DNA from: Gammaproteobacteria bacterium
GTDB taxonomy: Bacteria > Pseudomonadota > Gammaproteobacteria > Magnimaribacterales > Magnimaribacteraceae
Length of the DNA stretch: 64,000 nt
Assembly (NCBI GenBank): GCA_015660645.1
Contig: DQKS01000070.1
Coordinates: 5,417-69,416 of the forward strand
Direction: 5' to 3'
The notes below the pieces were generated by a model that worked only from the letters and a program-made list of their open reading frames with translations, searched no databases and was not told where the DNA came from. Of this stretch, positions 4,591 to 43,416 are shown in pieces (the stretch's first letter is position 1; each line of letters starts with the position of its first letter). Both the position numbers and the translations under genes were made by a program.

Positions 4591-5373
4591 ATGAAGCCAG
4601 TATGTTTAGTTTTAGGGGCGGGCGCAGGTATAGGAGGTACGGTCGCTGCTAAGTTTGCTAGTGAAGGGTATCACTCGTGCTTGTGCAGAAGATCTGATCA
4701 AGAAGGCCTAGATCGATTAGTTAAGGGAATTGAAGATGACGGTGGCTCTGCCAATGGTTATTTAATTAATGCCATAGAGGATAACGTAATTGAAGATTTG
4801 ATTAATTCGATTGAATCTGACGTTGGACCCATAGAAGTAGTGGTCTACAACCTAGGTGCGCAAACCGGCATGAAACTCCTGAAAGATACAACCCATAAAG
4901 AATTTGAATGGGGTTGGAGAATGGCAAGTCTTGGACTATTTAGGGTGGCTAAAGTGCTTTGCCCAATCATGAAAGAAAGAGGAAAGGGAACAATTCTAGT
5001 TACTTCCGCAACAGCAGCCATGAGAGGTAATGCAACACAACACTCTCATGCAGCTGCCATGGGAGCAAGGAGAATGTTATGCCAATCTTTAAATGCAGAG
5101 TTTTCTGCAAGCAGTATTCATGTAGCACATATAGTAATTGACGGAGCAGTAGATGCACCAGATACGCTCGGGAAAATGTTAGGGCCAGAAATGTTTCAGA
5201 AATTCAGAGAGACAAAAGGTATGGAGCATGATGGTCTTTTACTTCCAAAAGAGATTGCGGAAACTTATTTTCATTTAGCTCATCAGCACAGATCTGCATG
5301 GACACATGAGTTAGATCTTAGGGCTTTTTCAGATTTAGCTTGGTGGAACCACAGCACAATGCTAGAAGATTAA
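4591..5373 (+). CDS. Short-chain dehydrogenase/reductase (SDR) family oxidoreductase
   Basis: N-terminal Rossmann motif VLGAGAGIGG. 260 aa, SDR-typical length. Confidence 0.75.
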   Translation: MKPVCLVLGAGAGIGGTVAAKFASEGYHSCLCRRSDQEGLDRLVKGIEDDGGSANGYLINAIEDNVIEDLINSIESDVGPIEVVVYNLGAQTGMKLLKDTTHKEFEWGWRMASLGLFRVAKVLCPIMKERGKGTILVTSATAAMRGNATQHSHAAAMGARRMLCQSLNAEFSASSIHVAHIVIDGAVDAPDTLGKMLGPEMFQKFRETKGMEHDGLLLPKEIAETYFHLAHQHRSAWTHELDLRAFSDLAWWNHSTMLED

Positions 5374-6314
5374 GAGACCTTGAATCGCTCTATCTGGATA
5401 TCATCTTCTCCAAGGTCTTCGTAATTATCATTTACCCTGCCTTGAATGTATTCTTTCCACGTGAACGAGCTGTAAAGATCAGACTTGCTTGAAAGGCCTT
5501 CTATTGGTTTAAGAATTGCATTGCCTTTCGGGTTATAAAAATAAGGAGTGCTATAACGAGGGCTGTGGGTCCTTTTAAGAACTCGGTGTATTGCTGCTAC
5601 GTATTGATCGTTGGTCCAGACCTGCATCGCGTCTCCTAAATTAACAACAATAGTGTCTTCTTCTGGTTCAATATCTATCCAACCTGATTCTTTAGATTTA
5701 GCTTGCAATCCACCTGTCATATCTTGAAGCAATAGAGTAAGGATTCCAGGATCGGTGTGATGGTGAAGTGCCATATCGCCTAGTTCGGAAACTTTTTCTT
5801 GATCATTCGAATCCAGAGGGTCACTCGTAGGGTAAAAATTTAGTCTCACATTACTAGTTTTGGATTCTCCAACTGGCAATTCAATCTGACTATTATTTAA
5901 TGCGTGAAAAACAAGATTTAAAGTTTCTTCAGCAACAACTGAAGCTTCTTTAAAGAATCTTTCCATAACATTTTTAAAATCTTTATCTTCTGGCCATTGA
6001 TTAAAATCATCACCATCTATTTTAGGTTTCATGTAATCAAAAACTTCTTTCAGGTCTCTTTTTTGTTTTGTGAGTTCTCTATCGTAATAACCTAGTGGAA
6101 TAGATTCCGTTCTTGAGATTGCTAGCTTATCTTCCCTAGGTTGTTCAAAAAACCACTCTGATGCCTTCCACATAGCATTGATTGCTGATTGTATTCCATG
6201 ATTTTTTAACAGAAAAAAGCCATGATCTCTGCAAGCAGAGTCTAACTGCTCAAGTTGATCGGGGTCAGTTTTTGCTAAAGCAAAATCTATTGTTGGTACA
6301 TGGCTAGCTTTCAT
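5370..6314 (-). CDS. 2-oxoglutarate/Fe(II)-dependent oxygenase (isopenicillin N synthase-like family)
   Basis: HxD in LHHHTDPGILTLL and a distal His/Arg in AAIHRVLKR. The ATG at 6314 is preferred over the TTG at 6335 and overlaps the amidase 3' end by 11 nt. Confidence 0.8.
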   Translation of the reverse strand: MKASHVPTIDFALAKTDPDQLEQLDSACRDHGFFLLKNHGIQSAINAMWKASEWFFEQPREDKLAISRTESIPLGYYDRELTKQKRDLKEVFDYMKPKIDGDDFNQWPEDKDFKNVMERFFKEASVVAEETLNLVFHALNNSQIELPVGESKTSNVRLNFYPTSDPLDSNDQEKVSELGDMALHHHTDPGILTLLLQDMTGGLQAKSKESGWIDIEPEEDTIVVNLGDAMQVWTNDQYVAAIHRVLKRTHSPRYSTPYFYNPKGNAILKPIEGLSSKSDLYSSFTWKEYIQGRVNDNYEDLGEDDIQIERFKVS

Positions 6315-7707
6315 GACCAGAAGCTCTATGCTCAAAGTTCAAAACAGACTCAAAAGCATGCATTGCTTTAAGTACTATTAAATCTTCGCGTTGACCGCCA
6401 ATTATTTGTAATGCTACAGGCATTCCAGTTGAAAGTATCCCAGCAGGTATTACGCCGGCAGGGTTTCTTGTCATGTTGATTCCCATAGTAAAATCTACCC
6501 AGGCAGGAGTCTCTGTACCGTTAACATAACCGTCTCCTTCTATCTTCGGCGCTTGTCCGCAGGTTGCAGGAGTAATTATCAAAGGTGATTCTTTAAAAAC
6601 TTCTTCAAGTTGATATCCAAGTTTATGGCAAGCGTCTATCGAAGAAGCATAAGCAGCTCCGTCCATATTCACTCCCATTTCTATGAAGATTCTAAGTAAA
6701 GGGTCTATTTGTTCATACTCTGGTGTACCGATTAAATGTTGCTGTCTTCTAGCACAAGCAGAAGCCCAGAATACCATCCATGCATCGACTGGATTCTCAC
6801 TCCAGATTGTATCTTTTTCTATGATAGTAACCCCGGCATCTTGAAGGGAGGAAATAGCCTTCTCGCAAACACTCAATACTTCTTTATCAACATCTGAAAA
6901 ACCCATTGTAGGTGACCAAATAGCAGTTTTAGGTAATTCTTCTGATAACTGTTTTGCCCAATTCGGATTTCCTCCTTCTAGCGAAAAGATATCAGTAGGG
7001 TCAGCACCAACTGTAGCATCTAAAGCTATTGCATTATCTATAGTTGTTCTTGCCATAGGGCCTTTTACGGTTAATAAACCAGAGCCGGGAGGTGTTGTTC
7101 CTCCTATGGGTATCCTGCCTTGAGAAGTTTTAATTCCACTCAAACCGCCAATAGCAGCAGGTATCCTAATTGATCCGCCTCCATCCGAACCTGTTCCTAA
7201 AGGAATCATCCCAGCAGCTAATGCTGCTGATGTTCCTCCAGAAGAACCACCAGGTGAATATTCTAAATTCCAAGGATTTTTAGTTGCTCCAAATGACTTA
7301 TTGTCTGTTTTACCTTTGTGGCCAAATTCAGGTGTATTTGTCTTACCTAAAACTACACAACCTGCTTGTCTTAATCTATTCACTAATATTGAATCTTCAG
7401 CAGCCGGTTTATCATTAACATGTAATGCCGATCCAAAAGTAGTTACAAAACCTTTAGCATCTTCAAGGTCTTTAACCCCTATTGGTATACCAGCAAGCGG
7501 TCCAACATCCTCACCTTTCGATATTCTTTCATCTAGAGAGATGGCTTGTTTTATAGCATCTTCTGGATTAACCGCACAAAATGCATTAATGATTTTATCT
7601 TGATTCTCTATATTGCTTAAAGCTGATGATGTAATTTCTTTCGCAGAAATATCTTTAGACTGAACTTTGCCCGCTAACTCACTGATTGAATAATCTCTGA
7701 AATCCAT
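6304..7707 (-). CDS. Amidase-signature family amidase
   Basis: Amidase signature GGSSGGTSAALAAG and GVKD lysine. No gatB/gatC nearby, so it is not called gatA. Confidence 0.85.
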   Translation of the reverse strand: MDFRDYSISELAGKVQSKDISAKEITSSALSNIENQDKIINAFCAVNPEDAIKQAISLDERISKGEDVGPLAGIPIGVKDLEDAKGFVTTFGSALHVNDKPAAEDSILVNRLRQAGCVVLGKTNTPEFGHKGKTDNKSFGATKNPWNLEYSPGGSSGGTSAALAAGMIPLGTGSDGGGSIRIPAAIGGLSGIKTSQGRIPIGGTTPPGSGLLTVKGPMARTTIDNAIALDATVGADPTDIFSLEGGNPNWAKQLSEELPKTAIWSPTMGFSDVDKEVLSVCEKAISSLQDAGVTIIEKDTIWSENPVDAWMVFWASACARRQQHLIGTPEYEQIDPLLRIFIEMGVNMDGAAYASSIDACHKLGYQLEEVFKESPLIITPATCGQAPKIEGDGYVNGTETPAWVDFTMGINMTRNPAGVIPAGILSTGMPVALQIIGGQREDLIVLKAMHAFESVLNFEHRASGHES

Positions 7708-7935: not shown

Positions 7936-9147
7936 ATGCATTTTGAACACACCAAACAAACCAAAGATCTAATAAATATTGTTTCTAAATTTCTGAAAGA
8001 AAACGTTAGACCAGCTGAGCAGGTTTATAAAAATCAGATGGAAGTATTTAGAAACGAAGGTAACCAATGGCAAGTTCCAGCCGTCATTTATGAGTTAAAG
8101 GAAAAGGCAAAATCTGAAGGGTTGTGGAATTTTTCTTTAACAGGTGAGCTTGGTTATGGGCTTACTAATCTAGAATACGCACCTTTGGCTGAAATGATGG
8201 GTGTGGGTTGGGTTGCAGAAGTGTTTAATTCTTCAGCCCCTGATGCTGGAAACATGGAGGTCTTAGATAAATATGGCTCCGAAGAACAGAAAGAAAAATG
8301 GCTAAAACCTTTACTGGAAGGAACCATGAGATCGGCTTTTGCCATGACAGAGCCAAACGTAGCATCTTCAGATGCCACCAATATATCAAGCACTATAGTG
8401 GCTGATGAGGATGAATATGTGATTAATGGAGAAAAGTGGTGGACTTCAGGTTACGGAAGGCCTGATTGTGGCTTTATGATTTTTATGGGAGTTTCAAATC
8501 CTGATGCGCCAAAGCATCAGAGGCAATCTCAAATTATTATTCCTAGAGATACTCCAGGTATAAATTTGGAAAGAATGCTAACGGTTTATGGGGCAGACCA
8601 TGCTCCTAATGGTCATGCTCATCTAACTTTTAGAGATGTTAGGGTGCCAAAAGAGAACATAATTTTAGGAGAAGGTCGTGGTTTCGAAATTGCACAAGGA
8701 AGATTAGGACCCGGACGTATACATCATTGCATGAAAATTATTGGTGCTGCCGAACAAGCTTTAAAGCTTTTATGTGAGAGAGCAACTACTCGAATTGCTT
8801 TTGGTAAGGCGATAGCTGAACTGGGCGGTAATTATGATGTTATTGCTAGGTGCAGAACTGAGATAGAAATGTGCAGACTATTAACACTTAAAGCTGCCTA
8901 TATGATGGACACAGTAGGTAATAAAATTGCTAAAAGTGAAATCGCACAACCAAAAGTAGAAGTTCCAATGATGGCAGTTAGGGTTATAGAGAGAGCTGTT
9001 CAGATTCATGGTGGAGCGGGCGTTTCACAAGATACTCCTCTTGCTGGCCTTTATAGTTCAATTAGATATCTGAGAATAGGGGATGGACCTGATGAAGTTC
9101 ACCTTAGAACTATTGCAAAAGAGGAATTAAATAAATACGAAAGTTAG
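7936..9147 (+). CDS. Acyl-CoA dehydrogenase, FadE2/ACAD10-11-like subtype (subtype from memory)
   Basis: 403 aa. N-terminal ...[14 protein letters not shown]... and C-terminal ...[21 protein letters not shown]. Confidence 0.8.
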
Positions 9148-12997: not shown

Positions 12998-15139
<2,142 letters not shown>

Positions 15140-17992: not shown

Positions 17993-18228
17993 ATTAACCT
18001 CGTTTTCTTTAGGTGTGTTAGTAGAGTATAACACCTATTTTGATAACGCCAAAATATAAAGAAAATTTCTTGTTATACAAAGTTCATATTTTTATGATTT
18101 TTTGCAAAACTTTGATGAAAAAGAATTGAAATCATTGCTACACTATCTTCCAAACTTAATTTTAGTTTTAATAATCATTAAAGGGTTCAATGTAAGAACA
18201 ATAATTTAATAACTGATAAGGAGAATAA

Positions 18229-18711
18229 ATGAGTATAAAAGTAGGAGACAGATTGCCTTCAGTAACTTTAACAACCATGACTGATAAAGGGCCAAAACCA
18301 TTAACAACAACCGAATTATGTGAAGGAAAAAAAGTTGTACTTTTTGCAGTACCAGGAGCATTCACGCCAACTTGCAGTGTTCAGCACTTACCTGGATTTA
18401 TTAATAATACTCAATCTTTTAAAGATAAGGGAGTGGACTCAGTAGCTTGTGTTTCAGTTAATGACCCTTTTGTTATGGGAGCTTGGGGAAAAGATAGAGG
18501 AGTAGGAGAAGATGTTTTGATGCTTTCTGATGGCAACGGAGAATTTACAGCTGCCATAGGTTTGGAGATGGACGGTAGTGGTTTTGGTTTAGGTACTAGA
18601 TCACAGAGGTATGCAATGATTGTTGATGATGGAGTTGTGTCAACCTTGAATGTTGAGTCAGGACCTGGACTTGATGTGAGTTCAGCTGAAACAATTCTCT
18701 CAAAATTATAA
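18229..18711 (+). CDS. Prx5-type (PrxD-like) peroxiredoxin
   Basis: PGAFTPTCS peroxidatic-Cys motif. 160 aa. Confidence 0.88.
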   Translation: MSIKVGDRLPSVTLTTMTDKGPKPLTTTELCEGKKVVLFAVPGAFTPTCSVQHLPGFINNTQSFKDKGVDSVACVSVNDPFVMGAWGKDRGVGEDVLMLSDGNGEFTAAIGLEMDGSGFGLGTRSQRYAMIVDDGVVSTLNVESGPGLDVSSAETILSKL

Positions 18712-18712
18712 A

Positions 18713-19951
18713 ATGTCGAAACCGATTTATGACATAGGACAGATCTGTGAGCTTGATAAATGGGAGACATTTATCAATGGCCAGCCGTTCGAGACTTTTA
18801 AAAGACTTCGAGCCGAAGCTCCTATCTACTGGCATGAAGAAGATTTGCATTTTGAACCAGGGTTTTGGGCTCTAACTAAGCATGAAGACATTATTCAAGT
18901 TTCTAAAGATCCAAAAACCTTTTCTTCAGCTGTTGGAGGTCACTTGATGACGATGGGTGACCCTGAAACTATCGACCCTGCTGCGGTAGCAGCCATCATC
19001 GGTAATATGATTGGAATGGACCCTCCTGAGCATCAAATTTATAGAAAAATGGTCGCTCCTAGTTTCACTCCTAAGTCTATCAGGAGCCTAGAAGATGGTA
19101 TGAGAAGCAAGGTTAGAGAGTTGTTAGATAATGTAGCTGACAAAAAAGAGTTTAATTTTGTAACTGAGATTTCCGAACAACTACCTTTATGGGTGTTATG
19201 TGAAATGATGGGTATAGAAGAGTCTGAAAGACCTAAAATACGGAACCTAGTAAACAATCTAACCGACGCTTCAATTCAACAAGACCCAGAAAAAGGAATG
19301 CAGGTTTGGTTCAATTACATGGAGCTCTTCAAGATGGGAAGAGACATGATTGAAGAGAGAAGAAAAAATCCGACCGATGATCTAATGAGCGTCGTGGCTA
19401 ATACTCAAGTTGAAGGGGATCAGTTGCCTGCTGAGTTATTAGATGGTTTCTTTTTACTTATGGTTATTGCAGGAAATGAAACAACACGTAACACTATAAC
19501 TGGGGGTTTGATGGCTTTAACCGACAACCCCTTGGAAAGACAAAAATTAATAGAAGATCCTTCTTTAATAGCAAATGCAACGGATGAAATGTTGAGATGG
19601 GTAACCTCTGTAATCTATTTTAGGCGCACCGCTACAAAAGACGCTGTCATCAGAGGCCAGGATATTAAAAAAGGCGATAAAATTGTCATGTGGTACGGCT
19701 CTGCAAATAGAGACGAAGATATTTTTGAAGATGGGCACTTATTCCAAGTTGATAGACCAAATGCCAAGAAACATTTAGCTTTTGGAGCAGGAGAGCATTT
19801 GTGTCTTGGAAATAGACTGGGCCATATGCAAATAAGAGTATTATTTGAAGAATTGCTTTTACGTTTTCCTGATATTAAGTATGTTAAAGATCCAGTTAGA
19901 ATACCTTCAAACTTTCTTGCAGGCATATCAGAGCTTAAAGTTAGTATTTAA
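18713..19951 (+). CDS. Cytochrome P450
   Basis: Cys-ligand loop FGAGEHLCLG, ExxR (EMLRW) and I-helix AGNETT. Confidence 0.92.
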   Translation: MSKPIYDIGQICELDKWETFINGQPFETFKRLRAEAPIYWHEEDLHFEPGFWALTKHEDIIQVSKDPKTFSSAVGGHLMTMGDPETIDPAAVAAIIGNMIGMDPPEHQIYRKMVAPSFTPKSIRSLEDGMRSKVRELLDNVADKKEFNFVTEISEQLPLWVLCEMMGIEESERPKIRNLVNNLTDASIQQDPEKGMQVWFNYMELFKMGRDMIEERRKNPTDDLMSVVANTQVEGDQLPAELLDGFFLLMVIAGNETTRNTITGGLMALTDNPLERQKLIEDPSLIANATDEMLRWVTSVIYFRRTATKDAVIRGQDIKKGDKIVMWYGSANRDEDIFEDGHLFQVDRPNAKKHLAFGAGEHLCLGNRLGHMQIRVLFEELLLRFPDIKYVKDPVRIPSNFLAGISELKVSI

Positions 19952-19953
19952 AA

Positions 19954-21045
19954 ATGCTGACCAAGGCCGACGATTTCCCCATACATCAACTCCCCGTACC
20001 AATATCTGAGGTTGGGTCAGAAAGAAATTTTTATGATCGTTATTTCTTTAATGGTTATAACGAAGGGGGGGAGGTTTTCTTTGCAACCGCAATGTGTGTA
20101 TACCCAAACTTAAATCTGATCGATGGAAGTTTTGTTTTTGTCAAAGACGGAATACAACATAATTTTAGGTATTCGAGAGTTCTTGATCAAGAGCGCATGA
20201 ATACTAAAGTAGGGTCGCTAACGGTTGAAGTAATTGAGCCTTTAAAAAAGTTAAGAATTAGCATAAATGATGAAAGTAATGGTATTTCTGCTGAACTAAA
20301 TTTTGAAGGGCGTTTTGATCCTGTACAAGAACCACGTATGACTCTTATGAATGGCCCCAGGGTTTCTATGGATTCTACTAGGCTGACCCAGCATGGCAGA
20401 TGGACGGGAAAAATAAACTTCAAAGGTACTAGTGTAGAAGTAAGTCCAAAAAGCTTCATGGGAACTCGTGATCGTTCTTGGGGAGTTAGACCTGTGGGTT
20501 CTCCAGATTCACAAGCAATGGTTCCACTTAAGCTTCCTCAATTCTATTGGCTATGGGCACCAGCTAATTTTGAAACATTTTCTTCCCACGTGTATTTTGT
20601 TGATAACGAGGAAGGTGAAATGACACATTCTCATTCTGTTTTACAAGAGAATAAAAAAGAAACTGAGATATTAAGTACCCCAAAAAAGATAATAACTTAC
20701 GAAGAAAATTCAAGAAGGATTGCTAGGGCTGAAGTCATTTCAAGAAAAAATGATGGCAGCGAAGTTAAATTAATTATTCAGCCAAAATACAGAATGTTTA
20801 TGTGTGGTCTTGGATATATGCATCCTGATTGGGGTCATGGTATGTACCAAGGTGAAAATGAATCTATGTACGATAGTTATGATCTAAAAGAGGATCCTCA
20901 TGATCCGCCTTTTCTTCATGTACAGGCCATCTCAAACTTTACAATTACGATGAATAATCAAACTTATAGAGGCACGGGTGTACTGGAAGAGCTTTTGATA
21001 GGCAAGCACAAACCAAGCGGTTTTGAAGGATTATTAGACCGATAA
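19954..21045 (+). CDS. Conserved-looking hypothetical protein (363 aa), function unknown
   Basis: Long ORF, 2 nt after the P450 stop. Distinctive strings are DDFPIHQ, GTRDRSWGVRP and YMHPDWGHG. No signal peptide or TM segment. Confidence 0.7.
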   Translation: MLTKADDFPIHQLPVPISEVGSERNFYDRYFFNGYNEGGEVFFATAMCVYPNLNLIDGSFVFVKDGIQHNFRYSRVLDQERMNTKVGSLTVEVIEPLKKLRISINDESNGISAELNFEGRFDPVQEPRMTLMNGPRVSMDSTRLTQHGRWTGKINFKGTSVEVSPKSFMGTRDRSWGVRPVGSPDSQAMVPLKLPQFYWLWAPANFETFSSHVYFVDNEEGEMTHSHSVLQENKKETEILSTPKKIITYEENSRRIARAEVISRKNDGSEVKLIIQPKYRMFMCGLGYMHPDWGHGMYQGENESMYDSYDLKEDPHDPPFLHVQAISNFTITMNNQTYRGTGVLEELLIGKHKPSGFEGLLDR

Positions 21046-21049
21046 AGAG

Positions 21050-22072
21050 ATGAATAACGAAATTCAACTTGGTGAAGAATTCGTTAACTATTATTCTGAG
21101 CTTAAACAAGAGATTTTCACACTCAAGTCTATAAGTCGAATATTTGGTGGTGCCTCTAGAGAAACTTACCGTTTGTCTGTTTTAAATAAAGATTTAATTG
21201 AAACTAACCTCATATACAGGAGAACACAGTCAAGTGCATTAATTGAAACTGAACAGTTAACGGAATATTCTGCTTACTTAGCTTTCCAAGATTCTAAAGT
21301 TCCCGTTCCTAGGACCATTGCTATAGAGGAATCTCCAGATACACTTGGAGCACCTTTTATGGTTATGGAAGAGTTGAGGGGAGCTGCTGCAAGTCCTTTT
21401 GATCAAGAAGCCTATTCGCCTTACGAAGAAAAATTAGGTCATCAGTTTTGGGATATTCTAGGCGAAATAGTTCTTAAAGATATTGATGATCCAAATCTTG
21501 CTTCTATTCCTAGAACGGAATCTAAAGAATCTTGTTGGAAGAGAGAATTAGATCATTGGGTTAAGGTTATAAGGCAAGACTCATATAGCGTTGAGCCGAT
21601 CCTAGAGGCTGCTATTAGAGAACTTTATAGAAATTATCCCAAAGACTCTGCTAAAAAATGTTTAGTGCACGGAGACTATAGAAATGGGAATTTCTTATCT
21701 AAAGAAGGTACTTTAGTAGGTATATTAGACTGGGAAATGGCTCATATTGGAGACCCACTTGAAGATTTAGCTTGGGCTATGTCACCTATTTGGTGTTGGA
21801 AAGATCGTGACCGCCCTTCCTATTTAATTAAAAGAAAACAAGCTTTAGATGTGTGGCAGAAAAAGACTCAAATTAAGATAGAAGTAGAATCTTTAGCTTG
21901 GTGGGAACTCTTTGCTTGCGTAAAAGGTCTTGCTATATGGATATCTGCAGGTCATGAATTTATTACTGGCAGCAATACTGATCCCATTAATTTATTTTCA
22001 GCTTGGATACCAGGCGATATTCATATGGAAATAATCTTAGAAACTCTAGAAAAAGAATTTAGATCAAGATGA
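21050..22072 (+). CDS. APH/choline-kinase-fold phosphotransferase family protein
   Basis: Catalytic loop LVHGDYRNGNFL and metal-binding region ILDWEMAHIGDPLEDLAW. Confidence 0.85.
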   Translation: MNNEIQLGEEFVNYYSELKQEIFTLKSISRIFGGASRETYRLSVLNKDLIETNLIYRRTQSSALIETEQLTEYSAYLAFQDSKVPVPRTIAIEESPDTLGAPFMVMEELRGAAASPFDQEAYSPYEEKLGHQFWDILGEIVLKDIDDPNLASIPRTESKESCWKRELDHWVKVIRQDSYSVEPILEAAIRELYRNYPKDSAKKCLVHGDYRNGNFLSKEGTLVGILDWEMAHIGDPLEDLAWAMSPIWCWKDRDRPSYLIKRKQALDVWQKKTQIKIEVESLAWWELFACVKGLAIWISAGHEFITGSNTDPINLFSAWIPGDIHMEIILETLEKEFRSR

Positions 22073-22524
22073 AGCCAGATATAAATATAGCTTTAATGCT
22101 TTGTGCTCAAGAGATAGCTACTCGTTTTCTTCCGTTATTAAAAGAAGAGTATGACCAGTCTCGTCTAGGATCATGGGGAGCTCTGACGCTACTTTCTTCT
22201 CTCCAAATAGATGGAGCTGCAGATAATCTAAATAAAGAAAATAAACTAATGCTTGATTGGTTTACAAAGACTAAAAGTATAATTAACGCTGAAGATTTAA
22301 TACACAAGGTAGAAGAAGTTGAATCTTCTCAATTATCTGACATAAAAATCTCGACCTTAGACCTTTTTAACCAAAAACTTAGAATGATATTTGTAGAAAT
22401 ACAAGAATACCTTGAAGATTCTGGAGACTCAGAATACCTAAAAGAAAGTTGGATAATTTTACGAGAGATGCATGGTCATCGAAAGGTAAGTCACATGCTG
22501 GATCTATTAAAATCTGATACTTAA
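22069..22524 (+). CDS. Hypothetical protein (151 aa, predicted helical)
   Basis: ATGA overlap with the kinase stop. No motif recognised. Confidence 0.55.
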   Translation: MKPDINIALMLCAQEIATRFLPLLKEEYDQSRLGSWGALTLLSSLQIDGAADNLNKENKLMLDWFTKTKSIINAEDLIHKVEEVESSQLSDIKISTLDLFNQKLRMIFVEIQEYLEDSGDSEYLKESWIILREMHGHRKVSHMLDLLKSDT

Positions 22525-23009
22525 ATTTCCTTTCAATTCTAACTAGACCACTGCATGAAAGATATAAAACTCCAAGACACAATCACCATTGGTGCTGAGT
22601 AAATTGCAGGTAATATAGCTTTAATGAGAACAGTAGCTTTTCTTTCTATTTTTTTCATTTCTATAAAATCTAATACATGAATAACAGTTTATATAATATC
22701 ATTATAATTTATATAAAGATATAGATATAATCAATATATTATGAAATCCCTCTTAAATGTACCTTTTTATCGGCCTAAGCAATAAGATTGGTTACTTGCT
22801 AATCAATTATCTCTAGATCTGGTATAGCTATGCCATTTTCTCTTCTTACGAATCACCTCCTTTTTAGTAGATAGCTATGTTTCTCTATCGCTGCAACTAA
22901 GTAATAAAGTTGCTACTGAATAAATAAGAGTATTTATAATTAATTTACACAAAGTTCATTTCTATATAAGTAACTTAAAATTCTAAATGTATAATAAGCC
23001 AAAACCTCA

Positions 23010-30889: not shown

Positions 30890-31393
30890 ATGGTCAAAAT
30901 AGAAAGTAATAAAAAAACTAATACTCATCGTATATTATTAAGACCTAATCAATCAATTAGCTGGCGTTTAAGTCTAATATTTATAGGTTTTATAGCTATA
31001 ACTTGTTTAAGCATAGGTGTAGCTTTTTCTTTTTTTGGGGCAACTCTCATTCTTCCTTTTGCAGGTTTAGAAGTAATTCTTGTCAGTATTTGCGTTTACA
31101 TAGTTTTACGTAAATGCTACTGCCAAGAAGTAATTACCATGACTCAAGATAAGTTAAAAATCCAGAGAGCAATTGGGAAGTCGGAAAAGATATGGGAGTA
31201 TTTTAGGATATGGTCTTATCTTTTAGTGGAAAGGCCAAAGCACCCTTGGTATCCAGCTCATATATTTGTGACTTCTAAAGGAGAACGGGTGCCAGTAGGA
31301 GATTTCTTAACGGAAGATGAAAAAGAAGATCTTGTGGTTAGTTTAGAAGCTATTATTAATTCATTTAATAAGAATCAAGTCACCTCTGATTAA
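30890..31393 (+). CDS. DUF2244-like two-TM membrane protein
   Basis: LRPNQSISWR followed by two hydrophobic helices and ...QEVITMTQDKLKIQR. Resembles DUF2244 from memory. Confidence 0.6.
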   Translation: MVKIESNKKTNTHRILLRPNQSISWRLSLIFIGFIAITCLSIGVAFSFFGATLILPFAGLEVILVSICVYIVLRKCYCQEVITMTQDKLKIQRAIGKSEKIWEYFRIWSYLLVERPKHPWYPAHIFVTSKGERVPVGDFLTEDEKEDLVVSLEAIINSFNKNQVTSD

Positions 31394-32540
31394 ATCTTCT
31401 TCCAACCATCGCAGATGCAATGTTAATTTTTTGGATATCTATGGTTCCTCCTGCTATACCCCAGCCCCAAACGTCTCTATACCTTCTTTCCATGGTGTAT
31501 TCTTTATTAAAACCATAGCCACCCATTAATTGCATTGCGGATGCAACAACTTCTCTCGCAGTTTCATTTGAAAAACATTTTCCAACACTAGACTCAAAGA
31601 TACTTGGGAAGCCTTCTTCTGCATTATGAGCTGCTCTATGAATCAGCAATCTGGCCGCCTCTACCTTCATTGCCATTTCAGCAAGTTTCATTTGTACAGC
31701 TTGAAACTCTACAATTGGTTTTCCAAATTGTTCTCTTTCTTGAACATATTTCAAGACTTGTTCAAGAGCCCCAGAAGCTTGACCTAGGCACATGGTAGCG
31801 TTGCCACACCTTTCGAGATCAAAAGCTTCCATGAGTTTTTTGAATCCTCCGTCTGCATCAACAACCATATTTTCTTTTGGTACTTCAACAGAATCTAAGA
31901 ATATATCTGCTGAGGGGACGCCATTCCACCCCATGAGATTTTCTTGTTGTCCGAAGCTTAGTCCTTTTGAATCTTTTTCGACATAGACAGCACCTATGCC
32001 TTTTGCACCAGGAGCTTCAGACATCTTGCAGTAAACGACATAGCCTTCTGAATGGCCGCCTCCCGAGCACCAGCGTTTAGTGCCATTGATAATAATTTTA
32101 TCTCCTTGGATTTCAGCTTTGGTAGTTAGATCAGTTAGGGCCGAGCCTGCATTAGGTTCTGACATTGATACAGCAATAATAATATTGCCTTTGCATACCT
32201 CGGGTATAACTCTTATTTTAAGATCTTCATTAGCAAAATGTTCGATGGCTTTTACAGGGCCAACACAACTCTCAAAAATTGGAAAAGCTACAGCAGAAGA
32301 TACTTTTGCAAACTCTTCTATTACCAAAAGAGCTTCAAGATTAGAAAGACCTAGTCCGCCGTATTTCTTATCTACATTGATTCCTAGGAAACCCATTTCT
32401 GCATATTTTTTTAGCCAGTCTTTTGGTAAAGGAATATTTTTTTCTTCCATTTCCAATGCAACTGAGGTCATTTCTTTTTGAGCAAATTCTCTTGCCACTC
32501 TTTGTAATTCAATTTGTTGTTGGTTTAGTGAAAAATCCAT
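31380..32540 (-). CDS. Acyl-CoA dehydrogenase
   Basis: 386 aa. MDFSLNQQQIELQRVAREFAQKEM... The C-terminus ...WGWGIAGGTIDIQKINIA has Gly at the MCAD Glu position. Confidence 0.88.
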   Translation of the reverse strand: MDFSLNQQQIELQRVAREFAQKEMTSVALEMEEKNIPLPKDWLKKYAEMGFLGINVDKKYGGLGLSNLEALLVIEEFAKVSSAVAFPIFESCVGPVKAIEHFANEDLKIRVIPEVCKGNIIIAVSMSEPNAGSALTDLTTKAEIQGDKIIINGTKRWCSGGGHSEGYVVYCKMSEAPGAKGIGAVYVEKDSKGLSFGQQENLMGWNGVPSADIFLDSVEVPKENMVVDADGGFKKLMEAFDLERCGNATMCLGQASGALEQVLKYVQEREQFGKPIVEFQAVQMKLAEMAMKVEAARLLIHRAAHNAEEGFPSIFESSVGKCFSNETAREVVASAMQLMGGYGFNKEYTMERRYRDVWGWGIAGGTIDIQKINIASAMVGRRFNQR

Positions 32541-32553
32541 ATTTATCTCCTAA

Positions 32554-33750
32554 TTAGACGATCCTATTCTTTTTAAATTCTAGGATTTCATCACCTGAAT
32601 ATCCTAAATCATGAAGGATCTGATTATTGTGTTCCCCTAATAAAGGTGCTCTTGTTTTTAATTCGCCAGGGTTGGCTGAGAGTTCAATTGCAGGCCCAAC
32701 TATAGGCACTGGTTGTTTTACTTCTGGGTATTTCATATCTTTAAAGACTTTTTTCTCTTTTATGTGATGATCACTCATAACATCTTTAGCTTTAAGGACT
32801 TCACCAACAGGTATCCTAAAAGCCTCAAGTTCTTCCATTGCTTCTTGATTGGTTCTTTTAGCGCACCATTCAGCCATTCTTTCACTAATAAGCATACTAT
32901 TATTCCCTCGACTTAGATCATCTTTGAAGCGTTCATCATCAAGCCAATCTTCTGCTCCTACTAGTTCAGTCCATCTTTTAAACAGAGGCTGGCCTACCGT
33001 CGCAACAAGAATCCAACCATTTTTTGTTTTGAAGGTATCTGAAGGACCTGAAGTTTGAGATCTATTCTGAGAGGCTACTCGATTGACTTTAAGAAGTTCT
33101 TGTTCAATTACTAGACTATTTGTCATTGTTAAAGCAGATTGCAATAAGGATGTTTGTACTCTTTGTCCTTTGCCAGTTTTTTCTCTTTCAATCAAAGCCA
33201 GTAAAGTTCCATAAGCTGCTAATGATGCACTGCAGAAATCTACATAAGGAGAATATGCTTTTGACGGTACATCAGGATCTCCCGTCATATCCATGGCACC
33301 CGACATAGCTTGTGCCACTCCATCAAACCCAACCCTCTCAGCATAAGGCCCTGTTGTTCCAAATGCAGTATTTGAAGTAAGAATAATAGCAGGATTTATT
33401 TTTGTAAGTCTTTCATAATCAAGACCCATTGAATGTAATGTATTGTCCGGAAGATTTGCAATTACTACATCTGAATTTTTGACTAATCTCGCAACGATTT
33501 CTTTCCCTTCCTTTTTTGTGGGGTTTACCGTGAAGCCAAGTTTATTTCTATTTAATTGAAGAAACATTGCTCCTTCTCCATTGTTAGTTACAGGAGTTAC
33601 AAAACGATCTTCACTTCCATCAACTCTTTCAATTCTAATAACTTCAGCTCCGTAATCGCCCAGCAAGGCACCGCAAAATGGTCCTGCTATATATCTTCCA
33701 AAGTCCAATACTTTTATTCCATCTAATATTCCGTGATTATTGTTATCCAT
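32554..33750 (-). CDS. Family III CoA-transferase (CaiB/BaiF family)
   Basis: GIKVLDFGRYIAGPFCGALLGDYGAEVIRIE N-terminal signature. 398 aa. Confidence 0.88.
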   Translation of the reverse strand: MDNNNHGILDGIKVLDFGRYIAGPFCGALLGDYGAEVIRIERVDGSEDRFVTPVTNNGEGAMFLQLNRNKLGFTVNPTKKEGKEIVARLVKNSDVVIANLPDNTLHSMGLDYERLTKINPAIILTSNTAFGTTGPYAERVGFDGVAQAMSGAMDMTGDPDVPSKAYSPYVDFCSASLAAYGTLLALIEREKTGKGQRVQTSLLQSALTMTNSLVIEQELLKVNRVASQNRSQTSGPSDTFKTKNGWILVATVGQPLFKRWTELVGAEDWLDDERFKDDLSRGNNSMLISERMAEWCAKRTNQEAMEELEAFRIPVGEVLKAKDVMSDHHIKEKKVFKDMKYPEVKQPVPIVGPAIELSANPGELKTRAPLLGEHNNQILHDLGYSGDEILEFKKNRIV

Positions 33751-34858
33751 TAACTTTCCTGTGTTTATTTAGAAATTCCCAGATCATATCATTTCCCCAA
33801 TTCACTTTTGATGGGTAGTCTTTTTTACAACTGTAATAATTAGAGACTGTATTAGCTTGTATATTATTCCTACAATAACCAGCATCTGGGGTTTGTCCAG
33901 GCCAATGATGACCTCCTTCTGGAATCATACAATTAACTACTTCGTGTGTGGAAATATCGCATTGCTTTCTTGAATAACAAATTAATCCTTCTTTTTTTGC
34001 TATCAACAGATCAGTTTTCTTAATTACACTATTGCATTTCATTGCGTCCGACCAAGAATTAAATGAGGTAAAAGGGTTTTCATAAAAGTATCCCCCCGAA
34101 GATTGAGAACTATCTGACGGGGTAGTTTTATCATTTTCTCCAAAAATCTGCATGTAAGGAAGAGATAATTTAGGGACACAGGAGCGTCCTCTGGTAATTG
34201 AAGGAACTACTGCTACAGCTGCTGTTAATAATTCAGGATAAGTGCATGCAAACCTATGGGTCATTGCACCACCATTACTCAATCCAACCATATATCTTCT
34301 ATTCTTATTAACCCTATAAGATTGTGAAACTAGTTCTATTACTTGTTTTATAAATCCAAGATCATCATAACAACTCGTCCAAGCGCACAGACCAAATTTT
34401 AAACACTCCTTTGGTCTAGGAGCTGGATTTGTTTCATGAGAACAGCTTGGGGGATGGCCAGGAGTTGGTTCTGCGTTGCTAACGATATCATTCCAAGAAC
34501 TTACAAAGGTGGCTTTGTCATTGTCTATAACATTGAAATGAGACCCTTGTGGGTAGACAGCTATATAGTTTTCTTTCTCAGCATGCAGATTGAGACCTTT
34601 ACTAGTTTCTCTTTCAAATCCACTAGAAGTTCCTACATATCCATGCAAACCAATAACCAAAGGAAAAGATTCTATTTTTAAATCTTTATACTCCTCTGGT
34701 AAATAGATTAAATATTCTCTTTCTATTCCCTGCCAAACTATCTTATGAGAAGAAAAATTTGTTTTATCATTACTAAGAATATTCAAGGATAAGATACCAA
34801 GTAGTAAGATTTTAATTATTATAAGAAATTGATTCATTGTCCCTAAAAGCGATCTCAT
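33743..34858 (-). CDS. Secreted esterase, PHB-depolymerase/LpqC-like family
   Basis: N-terminal hydrophobic signal, nucleophile motif MVGLSNGGAM, and Cys-rich mature part. 8-nt overlap with the CoA-transferase start. Confidence 0.7.
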   Translation of the reverse strand: MRSLLGTMNQFLIIIKILLLGILSLNILSNDKTNFSSHKIVWQGIEREYLIYLPEEYKDLKIESFPLVIGLHGYVGTSSGFERETSKGLNLHAEKENYIAVYPQGSHFNVIDNDKATFVSSWNDIVSNAEPTPGHPPSCSHETNPAPRPKECLKFGLCAWTSCYDDLGFIKQVIELVSQSYRVNKNRRYMVGLSNGGAMTHRFACTYPELLTAAVAVVPSITRGRSCVPKLSLPYMQIFGENDKTTPSDSSQSSGGYFYENPFTSFNSWSDAMKCNSVIKKTDLLIAKKEGLICYSRKQCDISTHEVVNCMIPEGGHHWPGQTPDAGYCRNNIQANTVSNYYSCKKDYPSKVNWGNDMIWEFLNKHRKVNG

Positions 34859-34875
34859 GATTATAATAAAGATAT

Positions 34876-35277
34876 ATGAGTAAAGTAGAAATACCAGAAG
34901 GTTATAAAAAATTAACTTTCAATCAGCCACATATAGAAACTTTAGGACCGGGCTATTACAAGCGTGAAAACAATAATTTGTATATGGCTTTTTATGTAAA
35001 GTCAGAGAACTGTAATGGTTACGGAACTGCACACGGAGGAGTGTTGATGGCTTTGGCAGATTTCACCATGGCCTCATCTGCTATGGAAGATAGAAACAGC
35101 TTAGTAACAACTGTAAGTTTTCACTCTGAATTCATAGCTCCAGCGGAGAAGGATAGTCTTCTAATTATTAGGGCTTCTCCAACAAAAGTAGGGAAATCAT
35201 TAGGTTTTGTTGAAGGCGATATTACTGTTGGAGGCAATGTGATAATTAATTTTGGAGGAGTGGTCAAAAAGCTTTAA
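34876..35277 (+). CDS. PaaI-family hotdog thioesterase
   Basis: 133 aa. ...GTAHGGVLMALADFTMASS... Confidence 0.72.
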   Translation: MSKVEIPEGYKKLTFNQPHIETLGPGYYKRENNNLYMAFYVKSENCNGYGTAHGGVLMALADFTMASSAMEDRNSLVTTVSFHSEFIAPAEKDSLLIIRASPTKVGKSLGFVEGDITVGGNVIINFGGVVKKL

Positions 35278-41978: not shown

Positions 41979-41983
41979 AAGTT

Positions 41984-43393: not shown

Positions 43394-43416
43394 TTTTATC
43401 TTTTGTTTTCTTTATT

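What the first reader, a model, noticed from the sequence alone, without database searches (positions are those of the whole stretch)
18229..22524. Tightly coupled peroxiredoxin / P450 / orphan / APH-fold kinase / orphan unit with no P450 redox partner
Five same-strand ORFs are separated by 1 nt (18711/18713), 2 nt (19951/19954), 4 nt (21045/21050) and a 4-nt ATGA overlap (22069-22072). A 194-bp gap lies upstream and the largest non-coding gap in the window (485 bp) lies downstream, so this reads as one expression unit. Three parts are recognisable. The first is a Prx5-type peroxiredoxin (PGAFTPTCS). The second is a P450 with intact ExxR, I-helix AGNETT and Cys loop FGAGEHLCLG. The third is a small-molecule kinase of the APH/ChoK fold (HGDYRNGN, DWE...GDPLEDLA). 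The 363-aa and 151-aa proteins match nothing I can name. I recognised no ferredoxin or ferredoxin reductase among the ORFs of the 64 kb. An oxygenase fused operonically to a kinase suggests hydroxylate-then-phosphorylate chemistry, with phosphate as a leaving group. As I recall, this logic was reported for ACAD10/ACAD11: an APH-fold kinase domain phosphorylates 4-hydroxyacyl-CoA and the ACAD domain eliminates phosphate. An ACAD that looks like that subtype sits alone at 7936-9147. I do not know of a described bacterial module with this five-gene composition, but I cannot search.
Basis: partly seen in the sequence, partly recalled or inferred. Interest (0 to 1): 0.7.

Follow-up and report, generated by a model that had tools for sequence, protein, structure and literature searches.

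The report
P450-linked kinase–lyase alcohol-dehydration operon
In this SAR86 marine bacterium a cytochrome P450 sits in one tight gene block with a kinase, its small unknown partner protein and a relative of the newly solved 25-phosphosteroid lyase, which together look like an oxygen-using version of the [quoted passage not shown] chemistry so far known only from anaerobic cholesterol breakdown.

Summary
The five ORFs, their spacings and their motifs are as described. The 363-aa "orphan" is not an orphan. It is a full-length member of NCBIfam "Rv3169 family" (E 4.9e-106). It matches solved 25-phosphosteroid lyase by sequence (E 2.5e-49) and by predicted fold (TM 0.80). The kinase belongs to the ACAD10/11/Rv3168-like APH group. 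The conserved core is lyase→kinase→151-aa protein. In 80 genomes, 44 have the kinase directly after the lyase, and 40 of those show the 151-aa homolog right after the kinase. That homolog occurs nowhere else in these loci. It has no Pfam, PDB or fold match. P450s of two different families (CYP125/124/153-like and CYP108/P450terp-like) sit beside the module in at least four architectures. Their characterised relatives hydroxylate isoprenoid termini. The peroxiredoxin link is SAR86-specific. No redox partner lies in the 64 kb. Tight spacing is normal for this genome. Best reading: an ATP-dependent dehydration module for a hydroxylated isoprenoid or sterol-type terminus, coupled to a P450. The eliminating enzyme is the "orphan", not an ACAD. 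Reaction order and substrate remain inferred.

The parts
18035..18228 (.). 194-bp divergent intergenic region upstream of the unit. It is the likely promoter region and contains a weak sigma-70-like match at 18070-18098 (+).
   Evidence: The promoter match is a consensus match only, and the number of such matches equals the shuffle expectation.
18229..18711 (+). Prx5-type peroxiredoxin, 160 aa (Redoxin family, PGAFTPTCS peroxidatic-Cys motif). It lies next to the P450 only in SAR86.
   Evidence: Pfam Redoxin 3.6e-40. It sits upstream of the P450 in L001, L002, L003 and L077 and is absent from all non-SAR86 loci.
18713..19951 (+). Class I-type cytochrome P450, 412 aa, in the CYP125/126/268/153/124 neighbourhood. 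The Cys ligand loop, ExxR and the I-helix acid-alcohol pair are intact.
   Evidence: Pfam p450 2.7e-29. PDB: CYP125MRCA 2e-97 (42% identity), CYP126 1.6e-74 (38%), CYP268A2, CYP153 and CYP124 about 1e-72, CYP125 1e-65 to 1e-69.
19954..21045 (+). Rv3169-family protein, 363 aa, homolog of 25-phosphosteroid lyase. Predicted to be a phosphate-eliminating C-O lyase with the double beta-barrel AttH/kievitone-hydratase-like fold.
   Evidence: NCBIfam NF053593: E 4.9e-106, 354.7 bits against a cut-off of 150. PDB 9fzn/9g2i/9g4c: E 2.5e-49, 35% identity over 309 aa. AF2 model pTM 0.80; Foldseek TM 0.80 to 25-PSL over the full length. 56 of 80 family-invariant columns are kept in 25-PSL.
21050..22072 (+). 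APH-fold small-molecule kinase, 340 aa, of the ACAD10/11-N / Rv3168-like group. Catalytic motifs are H207-G-D209-x4-N214 and D227-W-E229.
   Evidence: Pfam APH 3.7e-29. PDB: ACAD11 1.4e-11, 9o56 8e-11, 3dxp 2.6e-10, Rv3168 (3ats) 1.4e-9, 9fsg 6.8e-5. Motifs are at least 95% conserved in 45 lyase-linked kinases.
22069..22524 (+). 151-aa all-helical protein of unknown fold ('Orf5'), translationally coupled to the kinase by an ATGA overlap. It is an obligate genomic partner of the lyase-linked kinase.
   Evidence: 251 close homologs. 170 representative clusters in 1.84 billion proteins, nearly all 140-160 aa. No Pfam, PDB-sequence or Foldseek match. It follows the kinase in 40 of 44 loci and occurs nowhere else in them. 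One in-frame kinase-Orf5 fusion, L073.

Best explanation
The block encodes an ATP-dependent alcohol-dehydration module wired to a P450, acting on the hydrophobic, isoprenoid-type end of a lipid. Candidate substrates are a sterol side chain, a phytol- or carotenoid-derived chain, or a terpenoid.

Proposed mechanism:
1. The APH-fold kinase, together with its small helical partner (151 aa), uses ATP to phosphorylate a hydroxyl group. This is most probably a tertiary dimethyl-carbinol such as C25-OH of a sterol.
2. The Rv3169/25-PSL-family lyase expels phosphate to leave a C=C double bond.
3. The P450, supplied with electrons by a ferredoxin and reductase encoded elsewhere, hydroxylates the same terminus.

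Two orders are possible. I slightly favour dehydration first, followed by P450 hydroxylation of the now allylic terminal methyl. In that order the P450 takes the place of the molybdenum C26 hydroxylase of the anaerobic pathway and opens the way to a carboxylate and beta-oxidation.

The peroxiredoxin is co-transcribed only in SAR86. It either mops up peroxide from P450 uncoupling or is simply a neighbour.

Shown here: family and fold membership of the lyase, kinase and P450; conserved catalytic motifs; conserved lyase-kinase-Orf5 linkage; repeated independent P450 linkage.

Inferred: enzymatic activities, substrate, reaction order, the role of Orf5, and a single transcript.
For: Lyase:
- Full-length match to the Rv3169 family.
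- E 2.5e-49 and TM 0.80 to solved 25-PSL, including an entry with phosphate and desmost-1,4-diene-3-one bound.
- The polar motifs DDxPxHQ, RNFYDRY, RDRSWGxRP and W..HG are shared with 25-PSL.
- The next-nearest folds are kievitone hydratase and AttH. From my own knowledge, kievitone hydratase hydrates a prenyl C=C to a tertiary alcohol.

Kinase:
- APH fold with intact catalytic motifs.
- Its nearest solved relatives are ACAD11's kinase domain and Rv3168.
- The ACAD11 kinase phosphorylates a lipid hydroxyl so that phosphate can be eliminated (PMC12440821).
- Rv3168-Rv3169 is one operon in M. tuberculosis (PMC5340868).

Linkage:
- The kinase lies directly downstream of the lyase in 44 of 80 species-level genomes from Alpha- and Gammaproteobacteria and one Desulfobacteria MAG.
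- Orf5 lies directly after the kinase in 40 of those 44 and nowhere else. A distant Orf5 on an unrelated contig again follows an APH. There is one in-frame fusion.

P450:
- 9 of the 10 P450 ORFs in 1.37 Mb of fetched loci lie within 3 kb of the lyase.
- They occur in four architectures and belong to two different P450 families.
- One family resembles CYP125/124/153 and the other is CYP108 (P450terp E 1e-136). From my own knowledge, P450terp's substrate alpha-terpineol is itself a tertiary dimethyl-carbinol.

Precedents and context:
- 25-HSK + 25-PSL perform ATP-dependent dehydration of 25-OH steroids (PMC8449060, PMC11061730).
- SAR86 genomes are predicted to degrade steroid side chains and carry cyp125-like genes (PMC11582366, PMC4810484).
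Against: - There is no biochemical evidence for any of the five proteins.
- The kinase is only remotely related to every characterised kinase (E 1e-11 at best). It is closer to ACAD11 than to 9fsg, which is probably but not verifiably 25-HSK.
- The lyase is only 35% identical to 25-PSL. One family-invariant stretch (PQFYWLW) differs from 25-PSL, so the substrate is probably not the same.
- The P450 is missing from about four fifths of the lyase-kinase-Orf5 loci. About a third of lyase loci have no adjacent kinase.
- Relatives of the P450 make primary alcohols, which are poor candidates for phosphate elimination. This weakens the P450-first order.
- Tight spacing is the norm in this genome. The SAR86 flanks are syntenic too. 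So operon membership of the Prx and P450 within SAR86 is not independent evidence.
- No terminator or promoter was identified with any confidence.
Confidence: 0.6

Rival explanations
1. Hydroxylate-phosphorylate-eliminate in the reader's order. The P450 installs the (tertiary) hydroxyl, the kinase phosphorylates it and the lyase eliminates phosphate. The unit is then a three-step 'desaturase' for an unactivated C-H at an isoprenoid end.
For: The P450 is immediately adjacent to the lyase and kinase in several lineages. It mirrors steps 1 and 2 of the anaerobic cascade, with the P450 replacing the Mo C25 hydroxylase (PMC8449060). A tertiary C-H is the weakest bond at an isoprenoid terminus (chemical knowledge).
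Against: All characterised relatives (CYP125, 124, 142, 153, 108) hydroxylate terminal or allylic methyls, not the tertiary carbon (names; own knowledge). Most module loci have no P450, so the alcohol must usually come from elsewhere. An aerobe able to hydroxylate C26 directly has no obvious need for the detour.
Confidence: 0.25
2. The kinase (with Orf5 as an LvaB-like helper) is a 4-hydroxyacyl-CoA kinase. It serves the ACAD11-type dehydrogenase at 7936-9147, as in LvaA/LvaB/LvaC and ACAD10/11. The Rv3169-family protein does something unrelated.
For: The kinase's best solved relative is the ACAD11 kinase domain. An ACAD11-type ACAD without a kinase of its own lies 12 kb away. LvaA needs a 12-kDa partner, LvaB (PMC6692424).
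Against: The ACAD is a separate, isolated transcription unit flanked by minus-strand genes. The kinase is glued to the lyase, not to an ACAD, in 44 genomes. The lyase family's only characterised member needs exactly such a kinase. The match to ACAD11 is weak (E 1e-11).
Confidence: 0.1
3. There is no common pathway. In a streamlined SAR86 genome, unrelated genes (antioxidant Prx, a xenobiotic P450, a resistance-type APH, hypotheticals) are simply packed together.
For: Half of all same-strand neighbours in the window are 4 nt or less apart. Flank synteny is conserved in SAR86, so a conserved order is expected anyway. Dupont et al. suggested the SAR86 P450s may serve xenobiotic degradation (PMC3358033).
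Against: Lyase-kinase-Orf5 linkage holds across classes of bacteria with unrelated flanks. P450 adjacency recurs in four architectures with two P450 families. The APH scores far below every resistance-enzyme cut-off in NCBIfam.
Confidence: 0.1
4. Biosynthetic rather than catabolic role. The module introduces a double bond into one of the cell's own isoprenoid lipids (for example a hopanoid-, carotenoid- or quinone-type molecule).
For: In M. tuberculosis the Rv3168-Rv3169 operon is among the most de-repressed genes in a TetR (Rv3167c) mutant whose regulon is enriched for PDIM lipid synthesis genes (PMC5340868). The module sits among housekeeping genes here.
Against: There are no isoprenoid or lipid biosynthesis genes next to the module in the contexts inspected. 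The P450 relatives are catabolic. SAR86 is a lipid-catabolic specialist (PMC3358033, PMC11582366).
Confidence: 0.08

Closest known systems
25-hydroxysteroid kinase (25-HSK) + 25-phosphosteroid lyase (25-PSL) of Sterolibacterium denitrificans (anaerobic cholesterol side-chain activation)
   Same: The two-enzyme logic is the same: an ATP-dependent kinase followed by a phosphate-eliminating C-O lyase that gives an alkene. The lyase here is a true homolog (E 2.5e-49, TM 0.80). The kinase is of the same phosphotransferase (APH) superfamily.
   Different: In Sterolibacterium the partners are molybdenum hydroxylases that use water, in an anaerobe, and no lyase candidate gene lies near the 25-HSK gene (PMC8449060). 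Here the genes are contiguous, in aerobes, next to an O2-dependent P450, and with an extra conserved 151-aa protein. Identity to 25-PSL is 35% and part of the conserved core differs. The kinase is only distantly related to 9fsg (E 6.8e-5).
ACAD10/ACAD11 and the Pseudomonas putida LvaA/LvaB/LvaC system (4-hydroxyacyl-CoA catabolism)
   Same: An APH-fold kinase phosphorylates a lipid hydroxyl so that phosphate can leave (PMC12440821, PMC11342911). The kinase here is nearest to the ACAD11 kinase domain. LvaA needs a small partner of unknown fold, LvaB (PMC6692424), just as this kinase always carries Orf5.
   Different: In those systems elimination is done by a flavin ACAD domain on a CoA thioester. 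Here a cofactor-less beta-barrel lyase family is linked instead. Homology of Orf5 to LvaB was not tested because no LvaB sequence was available.
Mycobacterium tuberculosis Rv3168-Rv3169 operon
   Same: The same two families (APH-like kinase + Rv3169-family protein) form one operon, repressed by the TetR regulator Rv3167c (PMC5340868). NCBIfam names the lyase family after Rv3169.
   Different: The gene order is reversed (kinase first). No P450, Prx or Orf5 is reported there. Rv3168 has been treated as a putative aminoglycoside phosphotransferase (PMC3691515), and Rv3169 has no assigned function in the papers found.
CYP125/CYP142/CYP124 (sterol C26 and methyl-branched lipid omega-hydroxylases) and CYP108 P450terp
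   Same: The SAR86 P450 and the Caulobacteraceae one (L053) fall next to CYP125/126/268/153/124. The Parvibaculum/L079 ones are CYP108-like. All are class I enzymes that act on hydrophobic termini.
   Different: Identity is 42% to a reconstructed CYP125 ancestor and 38% to CYP126. The E-values to extant CYP125, CYP124, CYP153 and CYP268 are similar, so the P450 cannot be assigned to CYP125. None of the characterised enzymes is reported alongside a kinase/lyase pair.
Kievitone hydratase / AttH (CrtC-like) double-barrel fold
   Same: These are the next-best structural neighbours of the lyase model (E 6e-10 to 1e-9, TM about 0.5). The hydratases interconvert a prenyl C=C and a tertiary alcohol (own knowledge). 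That is the same carbon skeleton chemistry without phosphate.
   Different: There is no detectable sequence similarity. Those enzymes add water and need no kinase.

Membership tests
Rv3169 family / 25-phosphosteroid lyase | Full-length match to the family profile above the curated cut-off | tested here: met
   NF053593: 354.7 bits against a cut-off of 150, residues 2-348 of 363.
Rv3169 family / 25-phosphosteroid lyase | Same fold as the solved 25-PSL structure | tested here: met
   AF2 model (pLDDT 77, pTM 0.80). Foldseek TM 0.79-0.80 and E about 1e-28 to 9fzn/9g2i/9g4c over about 360 columns.
Rv3169 family / 25-phosphosteroid lyase | Conservation of the family's invariant polar residues (candidate phosphate-binding or catalytic residues) | tested here: inconclusive
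   56 of 80 invariant columns are shared with 25-PSL, including DDxPxHQ, RNFYDRY, RDRSWGxRP and W293/H295. Which residues are catalytic could not be established, because no paper on the structure is in the library.
Rv3169 family / 25-phosphosteroid lyase | Phosphate elimination from a 25-phosphosteroid giving a delta-24 alkene | not testable with these tools
   This needs an enzyme assay. The divergent PQFYWLW segment suggests a different substrate.
APH-fold small-molecule kinase (ACAD10/11-N / Rv3168-like) | APH domain with catalytic HxDxxxxN loop and metal-binding D-x-E/DFG-equivalent | tested here: met
   Pfam PF01636: 102.6 bits against a cut-off of 23.2. H207-G-D-Y-R-N-G-N214 and D227-W-E229 are at least 95% conserved in 45 lyase-linked kinases.
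APH-fold small-molecule kinase (ACAD10/11-N / Rv3168-like) | Orthology to a kinase of known substrate (25-HSK, ACAD11 kinase, LvaA, resistance APHs) | tested here: not met
   Best PDB E-values are only 1e-11 (ACAD11) and 6.8e-5 (9fsg). All NCBIfam equivalog scores lie far below their cut-offs.
Cytochrome P450, CYP125 (steroid C26-monooxygenase) | P450 fold with Cys ligand, ExxR and I-helix acid-alcohol pair | tested here: met
   Pfam p450. FGAGEHLCLG, DEMLRW and AGNETT were read in the translation.
Cytochrome P450, CYP125 (steroid C26-monooxygenase) | Clearly closer to CYP125 than to other CYP families (more than 40% identity by convention) | tested here: inconclusive
   42% identity to a reconstructed CYP125 ancestor, but extant CYP125s score E 1e-65 to 1e-69. 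That is weaker than CYP126, CYP268, CYP153 and CYP124 at about 1e-72 to 1e-74.
Cytochrome P450, class I system | Ferredoxin and ferredoxin reductase encoded with the P450 | tested here: not met
   None was found in the Pfam-scanned ORFs of the 64 kb, nor by the motif and tblastn scans of the whole window. This is common for CYP125-type genes and does not argue against activity.
Prx5-type peroxiredoxin | Redoxin domain with the peroxidatic Cys in PxxxTxxC | tested here: met
   PF08534: 137.6 bits. PGAFTPTCS is present.
LvaB-like kinase accessory protein | Small protein always encoded next to, and required by, an APH-type lipid kinase | tested here: inconclusive
   Obligate adjacency is met (40 of 44 loci, none elsewhere), plus one in-frame fusion. 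Sequence homology to LvaB was not tested. Physical interaction cannot be tested here.

The most novel reading that the evidence does not exclude
All five genes form one salvage pathway for oxidised isoprenoid termini in oxic seawater. Autoxidised or photo-oxidised sterol or phytol-type chains carry tertiary hydroperoxides or alcohols, which would block beta-oxidation.

Proposed steps:
1. The Prx5-type peroxiredoxin reduces the hydroperoxide to the tertiary alcohol.
2. The kinase, with a previously unknown obligatory small subunit (Orf5), phosphorylates the alcohol.
3. The 25-PSL-like lyase expels phosphate to give the alkene.
4. The CYP125-like P450 hydroxylates the allylic methyl to start side-chain beta-oxidation.

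This would be an aerobic, P450-based counterpart of the anaerobic ATP-dependent sterol side-chain activation. It would be present in one of the most abundant bacterial clades of the surface ocean, and in variants in many Alphaproteobacteria and mycobacteria.
Probability: 0.15. Interest if true: 0.85.

Novelty: new variant of a known kind. Interest (0 to 1): 0.64.

Why it matters
ATP-dependent dehydration of an alcohol through a phosphoester has so far been documented for anaerobic sterol degradation and for 4-hydroxyacyl-CoAs. The lyase gene became public only with PDB entries released in January 2026.

This analysis adds four points:
- The same lyase family is widespread, with at least 596 hits among species-representative genomes.
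- It is usually welded to a dedicated kinase and to a small protein family with no known fold.
- It has repeatedly recruited P450s that work on isoprenoid ends.
- This happens in aerobes, including SAR86, which makes up as much as 6% of surface-ocean bacteria (PMC11582366).

The analysis also gives three things to work with:
- A concrete, testable function for the Rv3168-Rv3169 operon of M. tuberculosis. Rv3168 has been treated as a putative aminoglycoside resistance enzyme.
- A candidate for the step that lets SAR86 deal with sterol or isoprenoid side chains.
- A candidate new kinase subunit.

Tried and rejected
1. My first Orf5 profile was contaminated. My ORF caller extended ORFs upstream into the kinase gene in high-GC loci, which gave impossible E-values and an out-of-frame 'hit' inside a kinase gene. 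I rebuilt it from trimmed envelopes and required each hit to start at the kinase stop. The count changed from 43/44 to 40/44, plus one weak hit, one fusion and one contig end.

2. Orf5 as a split-off domain of longer kinases, or as any known fold: rejected. Profile searches against PDB sequences, Foldseek and Pfam on 33 diverse members all gave nothing.

3. Peroxygenase idea (the Prx feeding or handling H2O2 for a CYP152-type P450): rejected. The P450 keeps the acid-alcohol pair and scores only 1e-3 against the CYP152 model.

4. Resistance-type APH: rejected. All NCBIfam resistance models score far below their cut-offs.

5. Riboswitch or other RNA element in the flanks: none found in Rfam.

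6. Promoter and terminator scans: no more sites than expected from shuffles.

7. A paper on the 25-PSL structure: none found in the library. Catalytic residues could therefore not be mapped.

8. Recurrent neighbours of the lyase outside the module, judged from the sequences alone, look like a DUF423-type membrane protein, a proline iminopeptidase-type alpha/beta-hydrolase, an enolase-superfamily epimerase, an MFS transporter and Mla-type ABC components. They read as lineage synteny and gave no substrate clue.

Full report
**1. The observation**

The gaps are 1, 2 and 4 nt, and I read the ATGA overlap directly. All quoted motifs are in the translations. Pfam confirms a Redoxin-type peroxiredoxin, a P450 and an APH-fold kinase.

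The window is identical over this region to a 79-kb contig of JGI metagenome 3300001683. There the same five genes were called between a divergent TolC-like gene and parE/parC.

Three qualifications apply:
- Tight packing is not special in this genome. The window is about 94% coding, the median same-strand gap is 5 nt, and 19 of 39 same-strand neighbours are 4 nt or less apart.
- The 485-bp gap is the largest between long ORFs, but it contains a 39-aa minus-strand ORF (22539-22658). Its protein sequence is 56-59% conserved directly downstream of Orf5 in two other SAR86 genomes, although the DNA of the gap is not alignable.
- No promoter or terminator stands out above shuffle expectation, and there is no Rfam element.

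**2. The 363-aa "orphan" is a phosphate-eliminating lyase homolog**

NCBIfam places it, full length, in the "Rv3169 family" (E 4.9e-106, 354.7 bits against a cut-off of 150). Against PDB sequences it hits "25-phosphosteroid lyase (25-PSL)", entries 9fzn/9g2i/9g4c, at E 2.5e-49. Identity is 35% over 309 residues.

An AlphaFold model (pTM 0.80) superposes on those structures over its whole length (TM 0.79-0.80, E about 1e-28). One of the entries has phosphate and desmost-1,4-diene-3-one bound. All three were released in January 2026. Of 80 columns invariant in my family alignment, 56 are identical in 25-PSL. These include the polar motifs DDxPxHQ, RNFYDRY, RDRSWGxRP and W..HG. A PQFYWLW stretch differs.

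The next structural neighbours are kievitone hydratase and AttH. From my own knowledge, the hydratases of this fold interconvert a prenyl double bond and a tertiary alcohol.

In the literature available here, the lyase gene was still "unknown" in 2021 and "putative" in 2024 (PMC8449060, PMC11061730). I found no paper describing the structures.

**3. The kinase**

Its nearest solved relatives are the kinase domain of ACAD11 (1.4e-11), 9o56, 3dxp, M. tuberculosis Rv3168 (1.4e-9) and, more weakly, 9fsg (6.8e-5). 9fsg is an "aminoglycoside phosphotransferase-like protein" with an accession code adjacent to the 25-PSL entries. It is probably 25-HSK, but I could not verify that.

ACAD10/11 kinase domains phosphorylate 4-hydroxyacyl-CoA so that phosphate can be eliminated (PMC12440821, PMC11342911). 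Rv3168 and Rv3169 form one operon, repressed by the TetR regulator Rv3167c (PMC5340868). The kinase-plus-Rv3169-family pairing thus reaches Actinobacteria.

The catalytic loop H207-G-D-x4-N214 and D227-W-E229 are at least 95% conserved across 45 lyase-linked kinases. None of the resistance-enzyme models comes near its cut-off.

**4. What is conserved**

I kept the best 80 loci.

- **SAR86:** the full order Prx-P450-lyase-kinase-Orf5 is kept in L001-L003, and in L077 as far as it extends (lyase 62-65% identical). The flanks (CoaD, Fpg, TolC-like) are also kept, so this is weak evidence. A more distant SAR86 lyase (52%, L004) has only a distant kinase next to it.
- **Lyase-kinase:** across Alphaproteobacteria, other Gammaproteobacteria and a Desulfobacteria MAG, 44 of 80 loci have the kinase immediately after the lyase.
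- **Orf5:** with a clean, envelope-trimmed, iterated profile, 40 of those 44 have an Orf5 domain starting within -60 to +200 nt of the kinase stop. The remaining four are a contig end (L059), a weak diverged hit in the right place (L070), no detectable hit (L072), and a single ORF with the kinase and Orf5 in frame (L073, possibly a true fusion). No Orf5 domain occurs anywhere else in 1.37 Mb, except after the minus-strand kinase of L079. A distant Orf5 on an unrelated metagenomic contig again follows an APH gene.
- **Variants in other contexts:** one has no third gene and one has an SRPBCC (Polyketide_cyc2) protein in that position.
- **Lyase alone:** about a third of lyase loci show no adjacent kinase. 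This is as in Sterolibacterium, where no lyase candidate gene lies near the 25-HSK gene (PMC8449060).

**5. Orf5**

It is a real, conserved gene. It has 251 close homologs and 170 representative clusters among 1.84 billion proteins, nearly all 140-160 aa. It has no Pfam, PDB-sequence or fold match. The model is all-helical with moderate confidence (pLDDT 70).

The only precedent I know for a small partner of unknown fold attached to an APH-type lipid kinase is LvaB. That 12-kDa protein pulls down with LvaA and is required with it to make 4-phosphovaleryl-CoA (Rand et al. 2017, as summarised in PMC6692424). I could not test homology to LvaB.

**6. The P450**

Its best solved relatives are a reconstructed CYP125 ancestor (2e-97, 42% identity), CYP126 (38%), CYP268A2, CYP153 alkane hydroxylases, CYP124 (methyl-branched lipid omega-hydroxylase) and CYP125/CYP142 steroid C26-monooxygenases. 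It lies in that neighbourhood but cannot be assigned to CYP125.

The linkage to the module recurs independently:
- Parvibaculum (L008, L022): P450→lyase→kinase→Orf5.
- A Caulobacteraceae MAG (L053): lyase→kinase→Orf5→P450.
- L079: P450→kinase→Orf5, divergent from the lyase.
- Novosphingobium (L063): a P450 lies 2.8 kb away.

Nine of the ten P450 ORFs in all 80 loci lie within 3 kb of the lyase.

Two different P450 families are involved. SAR86 and L053 share the CYP125-like type. L008, L022 and L079 are CYP108, with P450terp at E 1e-136. From my own knowledge, P450terp's substrate alpha-terpineol is a tertiary dimethyl-carbinol, the same functional group as C25-OH of a sterol.

No ferredoxin, reductase or flavodoxin is encoded among the Pfam-scanned ORFs of the 64 kb, and the motif and tblastn scans of the whole window found none. 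This is unremarkable for this P450 type.

**7. The peroxiredoxin**

It accompanies the P450 only in SAR86. Its membership in the pathway is unproven.

**8. Interpretation**

The best-supported reading is an ATP-dependent dehydration module: the kinase with Orf5, then the lyase. It acts on a hydroxylated isoprenoid-type terminus and is functionally coupled to a P450 that works on the same terminus.

I slightly favour dehydration first, then allylic or terminal hydroxylation, for three reasons:
- Every characterised relative of the linked P450s hydroxylates terminal or allylic methyls.
- The known anaerobic cascade runs C25-OH → delta-24 → C26-OH (PMC8449060).
- Most modules have no P450, so their alcohol must come from elsewhere.

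A sterol-type substrate fits with published predictions. SAR86 is predicted to carry steroid side-chain beta-oxidation genes and "cyp125" homologs (PMC11582366), and steroid-nucleus genes were predicted in the first SAR86 drafts (PMC4810484). In the steroid-related passages of those papers that I retrieved, no kinase or lyase step is mentioned. I did not search them for the words "kinase" or "lyase".

The divergence from 25-PSL and the CYP108 link argue for a broader or different isoprenoid substrate.

**9. Rivals**

- The kinase could serve the ACAD11-type dehydrogenase at 7936-9147. That gene is an isolated unit 12 kb away, and the kinase's conserved partner is the lyase.
- Pure neighbourhood by genome streamlining explains the spacing. 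It does not explain the cross-phylum linkage or the recurrent P450 adjacency.
- A resistance function is not supported.
- A biosynthetic role cannot be excluded.

**10. Novelty and limits**

The chemistry is known (25-HSK/25-PSL; ACAD10/11; Lva). What appears new is:
- the operonic form in aerobes;
- the conserved third component;
- the repeated P450 recruitment;
- the presence in SAR86, and by extension a functional hypothesis for Rv3168/Rv3169.

The publication behind the 2026 PDB entries may already discuss homolog neighbourhoods, and I could not check this. Everything about activity, substrate, reaction order and transcript structure is inference.

Noticed in passing
window 22539-22658 (-): A 39-aa hydrophobic ORF (MKKIERKATVLIKAILPAIYSAPMVIVSWSFISFMQWSS) lies convergent to and 14 nt after Orf5, inside the '485-bp non-coding gap'. 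The peptide is 56-59% identical at the same position in SAR86 loci L001 and L002, while the gap DNA itself does not align. It is therefore probably a real small membrane protein gene that gene callers missed.
   Followed up: partly
window 7936-9147 (+): A stand-alone acyl-CoA dehydrogenase of the ACAD10/11 subtype (ACAD11 E 1.8e-123, against MCAD 4e-38). This is the subtype that eliminates phosphate from 4-phosphoacyl-CoA. It has no kinase gene next to it. The only APH-fold kinase I found in the window is the one in the studied unit.
   Followed up: partly
window 40950-45416 (-): An RPE65-family carotenoid cleavage oxygenase (41984-43393, E 2.6e-138) is flanked by a Zn-ADH-like oxidoreductase and two alpha/beta-hydrolases. 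This is a possible apocarotenoid or retinal-related cluster, in a lineage reported to lack retinal biosynthesis (PMC3358033).
   Followed up: no
L073 6610-8250 (+), Sphingomonas MAG: A single ORF carries the kinase domain (residues 83-397) and an Orf5 domain (423-544) in the same frame. It is either a natural kinase-Orf5 fusion or a MAG assembly error. No other fusion appeared among the 150 best Orf5 representatives.
   Followed up: partly
L086 8001-10523 (SAR86-like, GCA_902570595.1); L084 8001-10803: In more distant lyase-kinase pairs the third position is not Orf5. One locus has an SRPBCC/Polyketide_cyc2 protein (a hydrophobic-ligand binding fold) overlapping the kinase stop. Another goes straight to a LysE exporter. 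This suggests the third gene may be a replaceable lipid-handling helper.
   Followed up: no
L008, L022, L079 (P450 genes next to the module): These P450s are close relatives of P450terp/CYP108 (E 1e-136), a different family from the SAR86 P450 (33-37% identity). The kinase/lyase/Orf5 module has therefore recruited P450s at least twice independently.
   Followed up: yes
L003 2361-3617 (-): A second P450 (E 4e-73 to the window P450) lies 6.4 kb upstream of the module in this SAR86 genome. There is no counterpart at the equivalent place in the window.
   Followed up: no
about 33 of L001-L080 (e.g. L056, L058, L060, L062 Hyphomonas; L069, L075, L080 Sphingopyxis): Here the lyase homolog has no adjacent kinase. 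Judged from the sequences, it often sits beside a divergent DUF423-like membrane protein and a proline iminopeptidase-like hydrolase. Whether a kinase is encoded elsewhere in these genomes is unknown.
   Followed up: no
window 999-2171, 31380-34858, 3993-4565, 34876-35277: The region is dense in acyl-CoA metabolism: two further ACADs, a family III CoA-transferase and two 4HBT thioesterases. A 2OG-Fe(II) oxygenase (5370-6335) and KatG (12998-15127) also lie nearby. This fits SAR86's described lipid-catabolic specialisation.
   Followed up: no
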